Shown here: positions 4,774 through 64,000 of the stretch, one piece after another | How the letters are laid out: each line of letters starts with the position of its first letter | Position numbering within the stretch: position 1 is the stretch's first letter | Origin: Octopus vulgaris | Lineage: Eukaryota | Length of the DNA: 64,000 nt | Direction of reading: 5' to 3' | NCBI GenBank assembly: GCA_951406725.2 | Contig: OX597816.1 | Coordinates: forward strand, 140,678,001-140,742,000 | Position numbers: made by a program

Positions 4774-7700
4774 GTATGTATGCTTATATGTATTTATATG
4801 TACATATATATGTATATATATGTACATATGTGTGTGTGAGTACATATACACAAACATACATTGTATGAATGAAGTTTTCAATCATGATGTTGTACCTTAT
4901 TCTTCAAATGCTTCAATTCTGGGTATGTAGATATATTTACTCTATTGCTGACAATTATTGAAAGATTTCTCCATTGTGTTGATGTGCCATTTTCTATTAT
5001 TAATAAAACTCAGCATTTTTGCCGACACAGGTATGTTAGTAATAGTAATAATGATAATGATTTTTAATAATACATATATATAAGTAAAATGTTTATTTCT
5101 TATCATTTCCAGGTAAAAAGAAAATTCTCATATGGATGACAATATTAATTATAACCACTTTTGTGTACAGTAGTCAAATGTACCAAACCATTCTAGAAAC
5201 CTTCAAGGATATATTTTCAAGCTGGTGGTTTACAGTCACATATCAACAGTCATATCATTTCTCATATATTCATTTGACAAATAATTGTTCTGACTCCGTT
5301 CAGATCCTTGTTGCTGTGTGTTCAGCCCCAATAAATATACTGCATCGAAATACCATACGAGAGACTTGGGGTCAATATGCTAGGAACAATTCAAACTTTA
5401 AGATGGTTTTTTTTGAAGGTGTTACACATAGTCCTGGTGTTCAAGATGATATTCATGAAGAAAGTGTAAAATATGGTGATATTGTACAAGAGAACTATAT
5501 TGATCATTATGAAAACTTGTCTTTAAAGTCAATTGCTTATCTGCGTTGGGTGAGTTCTTCATGTAGTAAAGTAAAATTTGTGTTGAAAACAGATGATGAT
5601 ATGTATATAAATCTTCCATTGTTAGAGAAAACACTTATGAACATGAAACGTTCTCGGTTTATCATGGGTTTACTTTTTCGACATGTTGTACCAATCAGAC
5701 ATAATTCATCAAAATGGTACACACCCATATCAAAATATCAAAAGAATGAGTTTCCTGATTATATGTCCGGGACAGCTTATCTAATTTCAGGCGACATAGT
5801 ACCAGAATTATATGCAGAATCATTTAATGAAAAGCTTTTCTGGCTTGAAGATGTTTATATAACAGGGATGCTTGCAAACCGAGTGAATACAACAAGAATA
5901 AACAGTAACATGTTTACAATCTATAAACAACAATACACTGGCTGTGCCTACAAAAACATAATAAGTGGACATCATGTGACGCCAAAAAATATGAAAATTA
6001 TTTATCAACAATTAAAAGACGTAAATCTTGTTTGCCATTAATTTTCTCTTTTAAAAATAGTAGTTGAAGCCTGTAGAAATGAACTTAGTGCCCAGCTTTC
6101 TTGAATATCATTGCATTATATTCTGAGTTAACTTCATATTCTGGATGATTTCTTTCTTCCTTCTGAGGATATGGTTGATAAAATAAGCAACAGTAATATA
6201 CTGAGGATCAATTTCCAGAAACTTGCTTTGCAGCCACATTGTTTTAGATTTAATCTAACAGTGGAGTAATTTGGGCAACTATTTTCTCTCTTTTTCTCTG
6301 AATAAGCTGCATTCAAAATGCCACAGTCAAACACTTCTTACATGAGAAATCTGACTGAAAAGTGAGCTGGAAGGAAGCAGGACTGTTTCTCAGAAAATAT
6401 AGAAAAAGATGAATAATATTTCAAAGACTCAAATTAATTAATTTTCAAAATAATGTCCTATCATTACTCACAATCATTCCTTTAATTTTAGAATAATTAT
6501 AAAGAATACAACTGCAAGCAATTTTTTGCATGTGAATGTGAATCCTAAATAGCATGTAACAAAATTAATAATGCTGAAACTGGCAACTCACCTGGTGATT
6601 TTTAGACTTAGGTTTTCTATACTCCAATCCTCCTCCTTCTTTGCCTCCTCATCACTGCTGCCGCCGCCACCGCTACCGCCACCACCACCACCATCATCAT
6701 TTAACATCCGTTTTCCATACTAGTATGAGTAGATGGTTTGACAGGAGCTAGCCAGCTGAAGAGCCACCCAGGCTCCATGTCTGTTTTGGTATGGTTTCTA
6801 CTGCTGGATGTCCTATGTCCAAAACATTTTGGTACACTCATTTGCTATTTAATTGACTATGTATTAATTGGAAAGAGTAATATCACTTTATTTTTAAACA
6901 TTCTGTGAAGATGTTGAAAGGGTTTCATGGGCTACATAGAACCTACATTTCAAGCTGCATGCAGCTCATGGGCCATAGTTTAACCAATCTGGTATAGAAG
7001 TCTGTTTCTGACTCTTAAGCAGCTGTGTAGAGGCTCATTTGTTGGCTCATTCAGGAACTAGTAGTACCTGATGGTTGTGATAACATTTAGATGCATTATA
7101 TATAACACACAAGGAACAAAGTTGAAGCAGAGGGAATAAACAAATCATCCAAATAATTGACTAACCTTCACAACTTCTACCACATCTTCCTATCTCTGAT
7201 ACTGTTACTACAACCTTTACACACAACAACCGTTGTCACTTCTGTCTATTCTATTCTGCATCAACCTACTCTCATTACAACACTACCACATCTTTTCTGT
7301 TTCTGGTACTGTTACTTCAACCTTCACACACTACAACTACACAATCTCTATCAATTTTTCTACCACAACAATGGTACCTGTCCATACTCATTGTAATTGA
7401 ACAGTTATATTGAAAAGAAGTTTTATTTTTAAAAAAATTAAAGTTATTTTATACAAAATTATAGCAGACTTTCTTCATTTTATTTGTGCTTCTTTACAAT
7501 AGTAATGACAAGTTAGTTCAACATTTCTGAACTGTATAATGAAGAACATCTTAAATTACTTTTCAAATTATCCTTTAAATGTGATATTGAACAGCCAAAC
7601 TCAACCAACTCCAAAGAAAACAGATTCATTGTTAAAAAATATGCATTGTTCCAAAAAATCTGAATGAAGAGATAAGGGAAATCTTATTGATAGCGATAAC

Positions 7701-61300: not shown

Positions 61301-64000
61301 TCCCATGCTAGCATGGAAAGCGGACATTAAATGATGATGATGATGATGATGGATAGGAACCATGTAGTGGTAGAAAAATAGACAGAAGCTGTAGTAATTT
61401 TGTAATAAGTGAAGGTTGTAGTAACAGTATCAGTGATAGATGTGGTAGTACTATAATGTGTTATTGGTGAATGAAGGTTGTAGTACCTGTTGAATAGACA
61501 GAATGGGTGTAATAACAGTATCAGAGAGAAAGAAATGTGGTAATGGTTGTGAAGGTTTGTCAATCATTTGGATGTTTTTTTTCTCTCTTAGCTTTTTTTC
61601 TCCTCTCAGCTGTTCAATATTAGTACTTCAATAATAGTATCTGTTTGAACCACTGTATGGTTCCTTATAAGCCAAAGAGTGAACTTCTATACAGTCACTC
61701 AGTTAACTAAAAATAACATTCAAATATCTCTCAGATCAGATTATACCATCTTAAATAAAAGCACTTTAGATAAGGTAGTCCTAAAAAGATGAGATGCTCA
61801 TAGCTGGAATATCTCTGATCATATACCTGTTCAATTGGAGTTGGCCTGGAGTTAAAAACAAGTATTTTGGGGTGGTGTGTATTAGATGTATTCATAGAAA
61901 TGTGCTCCTCATGTCAACTTCACAAATTTCTTTTTAAAATGAGAGCGAAAAAGCTCTGTAGACCTAAATGTCATGCTGGTGAGACCCATATTGGAGTATG
62001 GGATTCAAGCCTCTTCTCTTTATCTCCTCAAAGACATACAGCATCTCGAAAGAGTCCAGAAGCTGGCTACCCGCATGGTTCATGGTCTCAAAAATTTGTC
62101 CTACGAAGAAAGGCTGAGGACGCTCGACCTTTATTCTCTTGAAAAACGCCGCCGCCGTGGTGATCTCATTCTCGCCCACAACATCATAAGCGAAAAGTGT
62201 AACCTCTCGAAAGAGCTGTTCTTCACTCCTGCTCCAGAGCGTCGGCTGCGGGGTCATTCCGAAAAGCTCTACCTGCGACGATTTCATCTCAATCGAAGGA
62301 GAGGAGCTTTCTCCGTCCGGGTTGCGGATCCGTGGAACAAGCTGCCAGACGAGATGGTGAAGATGCCGACGACCGCTTTGTTCAAAGCCTCCTGGACCTC
62401 AAGTGGCCTGAACTCTTTACATGAACACCACCCTGTACTTAACTCCATGTCCCCCTACATGGCCTTGCTATTTGCTTTTGAGCCAAATTAACTAACTAAC
62501 TAACTAAATATTGTTGTGCCTGCATTGAAGGGTTTATCTTTAAATATCTATGAATAACATGTCAAAGAGACCCAATCTTGGCAGAATGCATACTTTTTCA
62601 GTATATACACTACAGGTGGATATTATACAAAATACATGGGTTGAAGTGAATTGAAATGGCTTGATCACAGATTGAACCTTGTATTGCAGATTTTACTCAC
62701 TTGAAGTTTACCATTTATTTATGATGCTTGCAGCACATAGATATGACATAAGAATGAGCCTTCATCATTATCATTTAACATCAGTTGACCATGCTGGCAA
62801 GGACTGAAGTATTAATAAAAATAAATAAAATGAAAATGTAGCAAGTGTCCATTGAGAATTGAATTTTTGACCTGTGATTAATGGTCAAGTACATTGACCA
62901 ATGCTTTTCATTAAATCATTCTGTATACTATTCTGGTACTGTGTCACCTGAAATTAGATAAGAAGTTCTAGAGAATCCTCAGCATATTAATACCACTTGT
63001 TTTAATAACCATCACCTTAGAAGAATAAAAGATGTCAACTATGGCAGGATTTGAACTCAGAATATGGGGTAAGGATATTCAAGAATGCAGGGCACTTAGT
63101 TCATTTCAGCAAGCTTCAACTGCTATTTTTAAAAGAGAAAATTAATGGCAAACAAGATTTACGTCTTTTAATTGTTTATAAATAATTTTCATTTTTCTTG
63201 GCACCACATGATGTCCACTTATTATGTTTTTGTAGGCACAGCCAGTGTGTTGTCGGTTATGGATTGTAAACATGTTACTGTTTATTCTTGTTGCATTCAC
63301 TCGGTTTGCAAGCATCCCTGTTATATAAACATCTTCAAGCCAGAAGCGCTTTCCATTAAATGATTCTGCATATAATTCTGGTACTATGTCACCTGAAATT
63401 AGATAAGCAGTCCCAGACATATAATCAGGAAACTCATTCTTTTGATATTTTGACATGGGTGTGTACCATTTTGATGAACTATCTCTGATTGGTACAACAT
63501 GTTGAAAAAGTAAACCCATGATAAACCGAGAACGTTTCATGGTCATAAGTGTTTTCTCTAACAATGGAAGATTTATATACATATCATCATCTGTTTTCAA
63601 CACAAATTTTACTTTACTACATGAAGAACTCACCCAACGCAGATAAGCAATTGACTTTAAAGACAAGTTTCCATAATGATCAATATAGTTCTCTTGTACA
63701 ATATCACCATATTTTACACTTTCTTCATGAATATCATCTTGAACACCAGGACTATGTGTAACACCTTCAAAAAAAACCATCTTAAAGTTTGAATTGTTCC
63801 TAGCATATTGACCCCAAGTCTCTCGTATGGTATTTCGACGCAGTATATTTATTGGGGCTGAACACACAGCAACAAGGATCTGAACGGAGTCAGAACAATT
63901 ATTTGTCAAATGAATATATGAGAAATGATATGATTGTTGGTTTATGATGAAACCATTTGAAAATGGAAGAAATCGTAACCTCCCTGAAAGTATATTCATG

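What the first reader, a model, noticed from the sequence alone, without database searches (positions are those of the whole stretch)
5244..63939. TANGO6-cactin block bracketed by inverted B3GALT copies that look homogenised by conversion (possible flip-flop inversion)
Seen: about 3.8-kb inverted arms lie about 51 kb apart. By hand alignment the GT31 catalytic regions differ at only about 24 of 798 nt, including just 4-5 silent changes. The duplicated cactin exon in the same arms differs at about 16 of 114 nt. Non-coding parts are more diverged still and carry arm-specific SINE/CR1 insertions. Purifying selection cannot preserve silent sites like this. Inference: an old duplication with recent gene conversion confined to the CDS. 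A crossover in the near-identical tract would invert the whole TANGO6-cactin block. It would also swap catalytic C-terminal halves between two different promoters and N-termini, producing new enzyme combinations.
Basis: partly seen in the sequence, partly recalled or inferred. Interest (0 to 1): 0.8.

Follow-up and report, generated by a model that had tools for sequence, protein, structure and literature searches.

The report
Inverted glycosyltransferase gene pair homogenised by conversion
Two copies of a sugar-transferase gene face each other across a 51-kb block holding two housekeeping genes, and their coding parts have been copied onto one another long after the original duplication, a well-known process; whether the block between them ever flips is not shown.

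Summary
Two colinear inverted arms (5226-8913 and 60214-63955) lie 51.3 kb apart. Each carries a GT31 galactosyltransferase ORF (Pfam PF01762). Over 798 nt (5244-6041 vs 63939-63142) the copies differ at 24 nt, 5 of them silent. The other aligned arm columns differ at 311 of 1418 (Fisher 1.5e-39).

Purifying selection cannot explain this. Differences are even over codon positions (8/265 third, 16/530 first+second) and dN/dS is 0.97. Five or fewer silent changes at the flank rate has P = 9e-12. An old inverted segmental duplication followed by interlocus gene conversion is the best reading.

Arm B is the parental context. It holds the true last cactin exon (60994-61119), while arm A holds a decayed pseudo-exon (7684-7800).

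"Confined to the CDS" is only roughly right. The tract starts inside the ORF and fades about 70 nt past the stop codon.

The flip-flop inversion is geometrically sound but has no evidence in one assembly. The longest identical run is 167 nt.

This is a new example of a known kind, comparable to the yeast flip/flop region and human inverted-repeat inversions. The organism is not established, and no orthologue comparison was possible.

The parts
5088..6041 (+). GT31 (beta-1,3-galactosyltransferase-like) copy A. The coordinates are a stop-to-stop ORF of 317 codons plus the stop. No in-frame ATG lies before codon 17. A splice-acceptor-like site precedes a KKK + hydrophobic stretch.
   Evidence: ORF. 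PF01762, E 1.6e-46, residues 86-272; sequence upstream; 17-residue hydropathy 1.95. That hydropathy is weak evidence, because 68 of 419 stop-free 52-residue pieces of this AT-rich window are as hydrophobic.
5244..6041 (+). Homogenised tract in arm A (266 codons including the stop). It differs from arm B at 24 of 798 nt: 3 in 5244-5640 and 21 in 5641-6041.
6042..6208 (+). Sequence 3' of the copy A stop codon, with decaying identity to arm B: 8 of 70 nt differ, then 31 of 97.
6209..7137 (.). Arm-A-specific block with no counterpart in arm B. It holds a short dispersed repeat at 6692-6800.
7138..8913 (.). Old, diverged part of arm A, in three colinear blocks. Arm A has a 322-nt extra piece at 8291-8612.
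   Evidence: Mismatches are 272 of 1251 aligned columns. There is no other copy in the window.
7684..7800 (-). Decayed copy of the cactin terminal exon (pseudo-exon). It has an in-frame stop and deletions of 6 nt and 3 nt. The acceptor-like AG is kept.
14238..17846 (-). TANGO6 homologue, a single uninterrupted ORF of 1203 codons.
   Evidence: ORF. PF25267, PF23565, PF10363 and HEAT, in N-to-C order.
21763..61119 (+). Cactin gene, many exons. Pieces checked singly, given as enclosing ORF coordinates rather than exon edges: 38025-38294, 40740-40958, 53732-53971 and 60994-61119. The last of these is the terminal exon. Further cactin-like pieces at 58282-58383 and 59784-59906 were found by motif only.
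   Evidence: Cactin_mid covers profile positions 69-119 and 125-172. CactinC covers 18-49 and 85-125 of 125.
60214..61582 (.). Old, diverged part of arm B. It contains the true cactin terminal exon and the end of the last cactin intron.
61583..62974 (.). Arm-B-specific block with a 182-codon ORF (61943-62491, +). The ORF looks to me, from recall, like the C-terminal tail of a LINE reverse transcriptase. No tool confirmed this.
   Evidence: Pfam found nothing. The atlas was unavailable.
62904..62972 (-). A 69-nt pseudogenic fragment of the GT31 coding sequence with two in-frame stops. It lies in direct orientation 445 nt downstream of its counterpart in copy B, exactly where arm colinearity breaks.
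   Evidence: Identity is 58 of 69 to copy A 5766-5834, and 87% over 70 nt to copy B 63348-63417.
62975..63141 (-). Sequence 3' of the copy B stop codon, the partner of 6042-6208.
63142..63999 (-). GT31 copy B. The ORF is open to the window end, so its 5' part is not in the window. The homogenised tract is 63142-63939.
   Evidence: ORF. PF01762, E 8.7e-46..

Best explanation
An old inverted segmental duplication of at least 3.7 kb copied three things: the whole catalytic-domain part of a GT31 galactosyltransferase gene, its downstream spacer, and the terminal exon of the convergent neighbour, cactin. The copy (arm A) now lies on the far side of TANGO6, 51 kb from the original (arm B).

The non-coding parts and the orphaned cactin exon then drifted apart to about 22% raw difference. 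Much later, one or more non-reciprocal exchanges (interlocus gene conversion) rewrote about 0.8-0.87 kb of one GT31 copy from the other. That left only 3% difference.

Inferred, from established knowledge of homologous recombination: the exchange was limited to roughly the coding part because selection had kept only that part similar enough to pair. Diverged flanks stop heteroduplex extension.

Since the last exchange the two copies have accumulated changes with no excess of silent over replacement changes. The replacements nevertheless avoid family-conserved positions, and all catalytic residues are kept, so both copies may still encode enzymes.

Shown: the arms, the step in divergence, the polarity of the duplication, and the codon statistics. 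Inferred: conversion as the process, its direction, the number of events, and the cause of the tract limits.
For: 1. Arms are colinear, inverted and have no other copy in the window.
2. Arm B carries the intact cactin terminal exon (CactinC profile 85-125 of 125, E 2.9e-15). Arm A carries a copy with a stop and two deletions. So the duplication was segmental, and arm B is the original context.
3. The tract differs at 24 of 798 nt, against 311 of 1418 in the other aligned arm columns (Fisher 1.5e-39).
4. Silent sites: 5.0 differences over 161.8 sites. P(<=5 at the flank rate) = 9e-12. Four-fold sites differ at 3 of 90, P = 7e-7.
5. Differences are even over codon positions (8/265 vs 16/530) and omega is 0.97. 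The similarity therefore reflects time, not constraint.
6. Identity falls off stepwise on the 3' side: 21/401, then 8/70, then 31/97. This is as expected at a tract edge.
7. All 24 differences are substitutions, with Ts:Tv = 17:7, as expected of real evolutionary change.
8. Precedents with the same logic, diverged flanks around a near-identical ORF, are reviewed in PMC3966223 (passages).
Against: - Only one assembly and one species were seen. The defining test, paralogues clustering within species against orthologues, could not be run.
- Homology upstream of 5244 is not demonstrable. The best local score was reached by 138 of 2000 shuffles and 15 of 252 real-sequence controls. The 5' edge may therefore be the duplication breakpoint rather than a tract edge.
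- Two events of different age are not established. The 3-versus-21 split (permutation 6 of 2000) rests on replacements (3 vs 16, P = 0.002). Silent changes split 1 vs 4 (P = 0.37). Weaker constraint on the C-terminal part could explain the split.
- Omega near 1 is unexpected for two working enzymes. Omega <= 0.2 is rejected (P = 4.7e-4), while 0.5 is not (P = 0.13). One copy may be drifting.
- Cross-polishing of paralogues during assembly cannot be excluded from the sequence alone.
Confidence: 0.8

Rival explanations
1. The block between the arms flips now or recurrently (flip-flop inversion) through crossovers in the homogenised tract. This re-pairs each 5' part and promoter with the other copy's catalytic 3' part. 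It is the reader's extension of the conversion reading, not an alternative to it.
For: - The geometry fits. The copies are convergent and the tract lies at the outer end of each arm, so TANGO6, cactin and both cactin-exon copies would move as one intact block.
- Conversion shows that the arms do meet.
- Known cases exist. The yeast chromosome XIV flip/flop region has homogenised 4-kb inverted repeats made of gene pairs (PMC9731477; abstract and section 10).
- Human inverted-repeat inversions are often recurrent. One swaps the first exons of AQP12A and AQP12B. For another, the likely breakpoint is a 782-bp stretch at 99.9% identity (PMC3961182; abstract and passages).
Against: - The window gives no evidence of a second orientation.
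- The substrate is small: 798 nt at 97%, with longest identical runs of 167, 128 and 94 nt.
- In mouse cells, cutting uninterrupted homology from 232 to 134 bp lowered intrachromosomal recombination 20-fold.
- Human meiotic exchange seems to need 300-500 bp (PMC2583991; passages).
- The known recurrent cases use inverted repeats of 1.6-24 kb or 4 kb.
- No such figures are known to me for the group this window may come from.
Confidence: 0.12
2. Assembly or polishing artefact. Reads from the two copies were mixed, so the consensus of the coding tracts was falsely homogenised.
For: The high-identity tract is the part where cross-mapping would be easiest. The yeast study thought the risk worth testing.
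Against: - 24 differences remain, all substitutions, with Ts:Tv = 17:7.
- The arms were assembled apart, with different flanks and insertions and no N.
- Identity declines in steps rather than as a sharp identical block.
- A false homogenisation would not remove silent differences and leave replacements.
Confidence: 0.06
3. Both tracts were converted from, or recently re-copied from, a third GT31 copy outside the window, rather than from each other.
For: - GT31 genes form families.
- The window ends 61 nt beyond arm B.
- A 69-nt stray fragment of the coding sequence (62904-62972) shows that pieces of this gene have moved locally.
Against: No third full copy lies in the 64 kb (tblastn). Two independent conversions with the same edges are less likely than one arm-to-arm event.
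Confidence: 0.07
4. The whole arm is of one age, and the coding tract is kept similar by selection alone, on the protein, on codon usage or on an overlapping RNA.
For: The tract coincides roughly with the conserved catalytic domain. Replacements avoid positions shared with human B3GALT5 (1 of 18 vs 79 of 227, P = 0.006).
Against: - Silent and four-fold sites are about seven times less diverged than the flanks (P = 9e-12 and 7e-7).
- Omega is 0.97, with no deficit at first and second positions.
- GC3 is 0.26 in both copies, giving no sign of unusual codon bias.
- No Rfam family is found in the window.
Confidence: 0.01

Closest known systems
Saccharomyces chromosome XIV 'flip/flop' region (Salzberg et al. 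2022, PMC9731477; abstract and section 10 read)
   Same: A unique multi-gene block is bracketed by inverted repeats that are themselves paralogous protein-coding genes. The repeats are homogenised within a genome, and one arm can be interrupted by a mobile-element insertion.
   Different: - There the repeats are 4 kb and almost identical. Both orientations were observed within and between species, and homogenisation was shown by trees of many strains.
- Here only 0.8 kb is homogenised, at 97%. The rest of the 3.7-kb arms is about 22% diverged. No second orientation and no second genome were seen.
[quoted passage not shown] 2014, PMC3961182; abstract and passages read). Examples: HsInv0241 (AQP12A/AQP12B) and HsInv0209 (KRTAP5-10/-11)
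   Same: - Inverted paralogous genes sit at the breakpoints.
- One inversion exchanges gene parts between paralogues without breaking them.
- In one case the average repeat identity is 94%, with a short 782-bp core of 99.9% as the likely exchange site.
   Different: Those inversions were genotyped in people and apes, and their repeats are 1.6-24 kb. Here the core is less identical (97%; best 397 nt at 99.2%) and the inversion is hypothetical.
Concerted evolution of nematode paralogues: inverted hsp16 modules and col-12/col-13 (review PMC3966223; passages read)
   Same: Near-identical ORFs lie between diverged flanks, and this is read as gene conversion. Conversion is seen in head-to-head and tail-to-tail pairs.
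   Different: - Those pairs are adjacent, 0.4-1.8 kb apart. Here the pair is 57 kb apart with two genes between.
- The review warns that an ORF-only recent duplication can mimic conversion. Here the flanks keep old, colinear homology that includes a neighbour's exon, which answers that caveat on the 3' side.
Sex-chromosome palindromes with arm-to-arm conversion (PMC3723533, PMC8981503; seen as search listing and abstract starts only)
   Same: Inverted arms are kept alike by intrachromosomal conversion, with rare inversions of the spacer.
   Different: Those arms are many kilobases long, more than 99.9% identical over their whole length, and have short spacers. Here conversion covers only a fifth of the arm.

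Membership tests
GT31 / Galactosyl_T (PF01762) glycosyltransferases, both arm ORFs | Match to the family profile above the curated cut-off | tested here: met
   copy A scores 159 bits and copy B 156.6 bits (cut-off 23). Both cover profile positions 2-193 of 195. The closest solved relative is human B3GALT5 (8zwp), E 7.2e-40.
GT31 / Galactosyl_T (PF01762) glycosyltransferases, both arm ORFs | Metal-binding DxD motif, the ED catalytic-base motif and the metal-binding His. Roles are taken from the B3GALT5 structure paper (PMC11969544; passages). | tested here: met
   In the alignment, DDD aligns with D156-S157-D158, ED with E242-D243, and His with H285. I infer a chain-index offset of +30, and 13 residues named in the paper fit it. 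None of the 18 replaced residues falls on these positions.
GT31 / Galactosyl_T (PF01762) glycosyltransferases, both arm ORFs | Type II membrane topology: short tail, signal anchor, stem | tested here: inconclusive
   Copy A has KKK plus a 17-residue hydrophobic stretch (hydropathy 1.95) upstream of the tract, but no in-frame ATG before it. The support is weak: 68 of 419 stop-free pieces of this window are as hydrophobic, and 1506 of 20000 random anchors have 52 or more open codons upstream. The 5' part of copy B lies outside the window.
Interlocus gene conversion / concerted evolution | A tract much less diverged than flanking homologous sequence of the same duplication, at silent sites too | tested here: met
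   24/798 vs 311/1418 (P = 1.5e-39). dS is 0.032 against a flank distance of 0.257. P(silent) = 9e-12.
Interlocus gene conversion / concerted evolution | Homologous but older sequence on both sides of the tract | tested here: inconclusive
   Met on the 3' side. On the 5' side only 61 nt of arm B remain, and their similarity to arm A is not above controls (138 of 2000 shuffles; 15 of 252 controls).
Interlocus gene conversion / concerted evolution | Paralogues group within species, against their orthologues | not testable with these tools
Inverted-repeat-mediated recurrent ('flip-flop') inversion | Inverted repeats bracketing a unique segment | tested here: met
Inverted-repeat-mediated recurrent ('flip-flop') inversion | A stretch of near-identity long enough for crossover | tested here: inconclusive
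   The longest identical runs are 167, 128 and 94 nt. Mammalian figures are 134-232 bp (cell culture) and 300-500 bp (meiosis). No figures are known for this organism.
Inverted-repeat-mediated recurrent ('flip-flop') inversion | Both orientations observed among individuals or related species | not testable with these tools
   The window is a single haplotype.
Cactin (terminal exon in arm B) | Match to the end of the CactinC_cactus profile, open frame ending in a stop, acceptor site | tested here: met
   profile positions 85-125 of 125, 56.8 bits (cut-off 30); acceptor-like AG and a terminal stop. The arm A copy fails this test, with a stop and two deletions.
TANGO6 | TANGO6_N, ARM_TANGO6 and RTP1_C1 domains in order | tested here: met
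   150.6, 158.3 and 102.8 bits, at residues 5-227, 372-635 and 941-1057 of one ORF.

The most novel reading that the evidence does not exclude
The locus is a working flip/flop cassette in an invertebrate. Conversion keeps an 0.8-kb recombination substrate alive inside two glycosyltransferase genes. Selection holds a set of replacements distinct between the copies, and these lie next in sequence to acceptor-cleft elements. By alignment to human B3GALT5 they sit at the Tyr129 position, beside the Lys185 position, and 3-4 residues before the Lys197/Trp198 lid. Rare crossovers in the near-identical 5' half (5244-5640) would then invert the 57-kb TANGO6-cactin block. Each promoter and N-terminus would be re-paired with the other acceptor-binding variant.
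Probability: 0.08. Interest if true: 0.65.

Novelty: new member of a known kind. Interest (0 to 1): 0.35.

Why it matters
As it stands this is a clean, statistically clear example of interlocus gene conversion between inverted paralogues 57 kb apart.

It has a practical consequence. The silent-site distance between the two GT31 copies (0.03) understates the age of the duplication (flank distance 0.26) about eight-fold. Dating or orthology calls for this gene family from coding sequence alone would therefore mislead.

Two further results would make it more interesting. If both orientations of the TANGO6-cactin block exist, it would be an animal counterpart of the yeast flip/flop region, with genes as the repeats. 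If the retained replacements change acceptor choice, it would show divergence held against conversion.

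Tried and rejected
1. Homology upstream of 5244. Local alignment of the 61 nt left of arm B against 120 nt of arm A scored 11. That score was reached by 138 of 2000 shuffles and 15 of 252 real controls, so no claim is made either way.

2. Two conversion events of different age. 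The 3-versus-21 split is significant overall (binomial 2.8e-4; changepoint at 5641; permutation 6 of 2000). At silent sites it is not (1 vs 4, P = 0.37). I keep it as a possibility only.

3. A third GT31 copy as outgroup. tblastn of copy A against the window found only the two copies and the 69-nt fragment. Four further hits had E > 4. At the four tract differences it covers, the fragment agrees with copy B at three silent sites and with copy A at one replacement site (read). That is too little to give a direction.

4. Naming the arm-specific inserts. Pfam found no family for 61943-62491 at E <= 0.01 or E <= 10. The protein atlas could not take the sequence. The LINE label is my recall. The SINE label is untested. 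A 8291-8612 has no other copy in the window.

5. RNA families. Rfam found 0 matches at gathering score in the whole window.

6. Tandem repeats in the arms. None bears on the finding: a TG/TA microsatellite at 4683-4835 outside arm A, and a 36-nt array at 61576-61611.

7. Signal anchor of copy A as proof of a full gene. Controls show such stretches are common in this AT-rich DNA.

8. Literature for this locus. 'octopus' + 'galactosyltransferase' + 'gene conversion' (at least 2 of 3 terms; 130 papers, 12 listed) showed none about this locus in the listing. 'cactin' + 'TANGO6' gave 2 papers, both unrelated gene lists.

9. Structure prediction and complex prediction were not used. No deep alignment could be built with the homologue searches closed, and the tools return no coordinates from which to measure distances.

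Full report
**Observation.** The window is 64,000 nt, has no N and is 35.6% G+C. The repeat finder reports one long inverted pair, 5236-6208 / 62975-63947, 973 nt at 93%. The other long inverted pairs it lists are microsatellite-like or short dispersed repeats. Gapped blastn shows that the pair is the outer end of two colinear inverted arms:

| Arm A | Arm B | Identity |
|---|---|---|
| 5226-6208 | 63955-62975 | 93.1% |
| 7138-7501 | 61582-61218 | 68% |
| 7596-8290 | 61205-60488 | 69% |
| 8613-8913 | 60496-60214 | 71% |

The arms are about 3.7 kb each, and their inner ends are 51.3 kb apart.

**What is encoded.**
- Each arm carries an ORF of the GT31 galactosyltransferase family. Copy A is 5088-6041 (+). 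Copy B is 63142-63999 (-) and is open to the window end.
- Pfam PF01762 matches with E 1.6e-46 and 8.7e-46. The closest solved relative is human B3GALT5 (8zwp), E 7.2e-40.
- Between the arms lies a TANGO6 homologue, a single 1203-codon ORF on the minus strand at 14238-17846. It matches TANGO6_N, ARM_TANGO6, RTP1_C1 and HEAT.
- A many-exon cactin gene lies on the plus strand from about 21.8 kb to 61.1 kb. It matches Cactin_mid in 38025-38294 and 40740-40958, and CactinC in 53732-53971 and 60994-61116.
- Every cactin piece was searched on its own.
- Nothing in the window was taken for human.
- The organism is not established by any search.

**Polarity of the duplication.**
- Arm B, plus strand, holds an intact terminal cactin exon at 60994-61119. 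It has an acceptor-like AG in front and a frame ending in a stop. It matches the last 41 positions of the CactinC profile.
- Arm A, minus strand, holds its decayed copy at 7684-7800. That copy has 18 mismatches in 117 aligned nt, deletions of 6 and 3 nt, and an in-frame stop.
- The two preceding cactin exons (58282-58383 and 59784-59906) have no copy in arm A.
- The duplication was therefore segmental and took in part of a neighbouring gene. Arm B is the original context and arm A the derived copy.
- The diverged arm blocks have no other copy in the window, so they are not dispersed repeats.

**The step in divergence.**
- From 5244 to the stop codon at 6041 (798 nt) the copies differ at 24 positions in 22 codons, with no indels.
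- The other aligned arm columns differ at 311 of 1418: 39 of 167 just 3' of the stop, and 272 of 1251 in the three inner blocks, which also carry 224 gap columns.
- The contrast gives Fisher P = 1.5e-39.
- Nei-Gojobori counting gives 5.0 silent differences over 161.8 sites and 19.0 replacement differences over 633.2 sites. Thus dS = 0.032, dN = 0.031 and omega = 0.97.
- Third positions differ at 8 of 265, and first plus second positions at 16 of 530.
- At the flank rate, five or fewer silent differences has P = 9e-12. Three or fewer differences at the 90 four-fold sites has P = 7e-7.
- Purifying selection therefore does not account for the similarity. The coding tract is simply younger than the arms around it, by about eight-fold (0.032 against a Jukes-Cantor flank distance of 0.257).
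- Non-reciprocal copying between the arms, that is interlocus gene conversion, is the standard process that gives this pattern.

**Edges and inner structure of the tract.**
- On the 3' side, identity does not end at the stop codon. The first 70 nt after it differ at 8 of 70. That is below the flank rate (P = 0.02) and somewhat above the 3' half of the CDS (P = 0.06). The next 97 nt differ at 31 of 97.
- On the 5' side, identity is lost within a few bases of 5244. This point is inside the ORF of both copies: 52 open codons upstream in A, and 20 in B up to the window end.
- Whether old homology continues upstream cannot be decided. Only 61 nt of arm B remain, and their best alignment to arm A is no better than controls.
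- 'Confined to the CDS' is therefore an approximation. The tract covers the conserved catalytic domain plus a short tail.
- This is what one expects if exchange can only run where selection has kept the copies alike. That is an inference from established knowledge that mismatches suppress homologous recombination.
- Inside the tract, 3 differences lie in 5244-5640 and 21 in 5641-6038 (changepoint 5641; permutation 6 of 2000).
- This may mark a second, later exchange over the 5' half. However, the split rests on replacements (3 vs 16, P = 0.002), not on silent changes (1 vs 4, P = 0.37). Weaker constraint on the C-terminal part is an equally good reading.

**State of the two genes.**
- Omega near 1 rejects strong constraint on both copies since the last exchange. 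Omega <= 0.2 has P = 4.7e-4, while 0.5 is not rejected (P = 0.13).
- Yet the replacements are not random. Copy A matches human B3GALT5 at 1 of the 18 replaced positions, against 79 of 227 unreplaced aligned positions (Fisher P = 0.006). Counting a match by either copy gives 2 of 18 (P = 0.03). The identity counts were read by eye from the alignment.
- The DxD, ED and metal-binding His positions are kept in both copies.
- By alignment, several replacements lie next in sequence to elements that the B3GALT5 paper names in the acceptor cleft (PMC11969544; passages):
  - E/G at the Tyr129 position (5512).
  - R/Q beside the Lys185 position (5680).
  - H/D and N/S, 3-4 residues before Lys197/Trp198 (5700, 5704).
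  - E/G and L/R, 6 and 4 residues before Glu242/Asp243.
- This rests on about 33% identity and on adjacency in sequence, not in space. It is a lead, not a result.
- Copy A has a KKK plus hydrophobic stretch upstream, preceded by an acceptor-like site but by no in-frame ATG. Controls show such stretches are common in this DNA. Whether either copy is a complete, expressed gene is open.

**The inversion idea.**
- The two copies are convergent, and the tract lies at the outer end of each arm. A crossover within it would invert everything between: both spacers, both cactin-exon copies, TANGO6 and cactin, all left intact. Each 5' part would be joined to the other copy's 3' part.
- A crossover in the most identical stretch (5244-5640) would move 16 of the 18 replacements as a block.
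- This is sound geometry, but the window holds no evidence that it has happened.
- The substrate is modest. The longest identical runs are 167, 128 and 94 nt.
- In mouse cells a cut from 232 to 134 bp of uninterrupted homology lowered intrachromosomal recombination 20-fold. Human meiotic exchange seems to need 300-500 bp, though shorter stretches suffice for close repeats (PMC2583991; passages).

**Comparison with what is known.**
- The nearest case is the 24-kb flip/flop region of Saccharomyces chromosome XIV. It is bracketed by almost identical 4-kb inverted repeats made of gene pairs. The repeats are homogenised within strains, and orientation changes recur (PMC9731477; abstract and section 10).
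- Human inverted-repeat inversions are often recurrent. One swaps the first exons of AQP12A and AQP12B. Another has 94% repeats with a 782-bp core at 99.9% (PMC3961182; abstract and passages).
- Near-identical ORFs between diverged flanks are a classic sign of conversion in nematode paralogues, including inverted pairs. The caveat is that an ORF-only recent duplication can look the same (PMC3966223; passages).
- Here the old colinear homology on the 3' side, with a neighbour's exon in it, answers that caveat.
- No paper in the library ties this locus or gene family to conversion or inversion. Supplements were closed and not seen. They could hold repeat-length tables for the cited inversion studies, but they do not bear on the window itself.

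**Limits.**
- The genome collection holds only bacteria and archaea and was not used.
- The protein atlas could not take a new sequence.
- So there are no orthologues, no gene trees, no check of the organism and no population data.
- Arm B is cut by the window end.

**Verdict.**
- Observation: confirmed.
- Conversion: well supported (0.8).
- Limits of the tract: approximately as stated.
- Flip-flop inversion: untested and, on substrate size, not likely to be frequent (0.12).
- Overall: a new example of a known kind, of moderate interest.

Noticed in passing
62904-62972 (-): A 69-nt stray fragment of the GT31 coding sequence with two in-frame stops. It matches copy A 5766-5834 at 58 of 69 nt and copy B 63348-63417 at 87%. 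It lies in direct orientation 445 nt downstream of its source in copy B, exactly where arm colinearity breaks and next to the arm-B-specific insert. Arm A has no counterpart. Its roughly 12-16% divergence is of the order of the old arm divergence, so it may date from the duplication or from a repair event of that time.
   Followed up: partly
14238-17846 (-): The TANGO6 homologue is one uninterrupted 1203-codon ORF with all its Pfam domains in order. The adjacent cactin gene is split into many exons over about 40 kb. TANGO6 may be an intron-poor gene or a retrocopy. This was not examined further.
   Followed up: no
11917-12419 (+): Two adjacent ORFs that look like remnants of a mariner-type transposase. 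Pfam Transposase_1 scores only E 0.0038 (17.5 bits), below the cut-off of 24. The first ORF has no match, so the label is largely recall.
   Followed up: partly
21104-21627 (-): ORFs between the TANGO6 and cactin starts. One has a weak PHD-finger match (E 9.9e-5, 22.7 bits, below the cut-off of 24). A neighbour looks to me, by recall, like a reverse-transcriptase fragment. Together they are probably a retroelement remnant.
   Followed up: partly
4080-4242, 10719-10919, 29058-29234, 55408-55597, 55979-56140, 57187-57389, 57441-57576: A dispersed repeat family of about 160 nt, 73-85% alike and found in both orientations. It is SINE-like by size. None of these copies lies inside the arms.
   Followed up: no
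1738-2059, 27452-27647, 52804-52859: Long self-complementary dinucleotide-type microsatellites. They produce most of the other 'inverted repeat' hits in the window. They are low-complexity sequence and not related to the arms.
   Followed up: no
17847-21762: TANGO6 (-) and cactin (+) are head to head, about 4 kb apart. They may share a bidirectional promoter region, which any inversion of the block would carry along intact.
   Followed up: no
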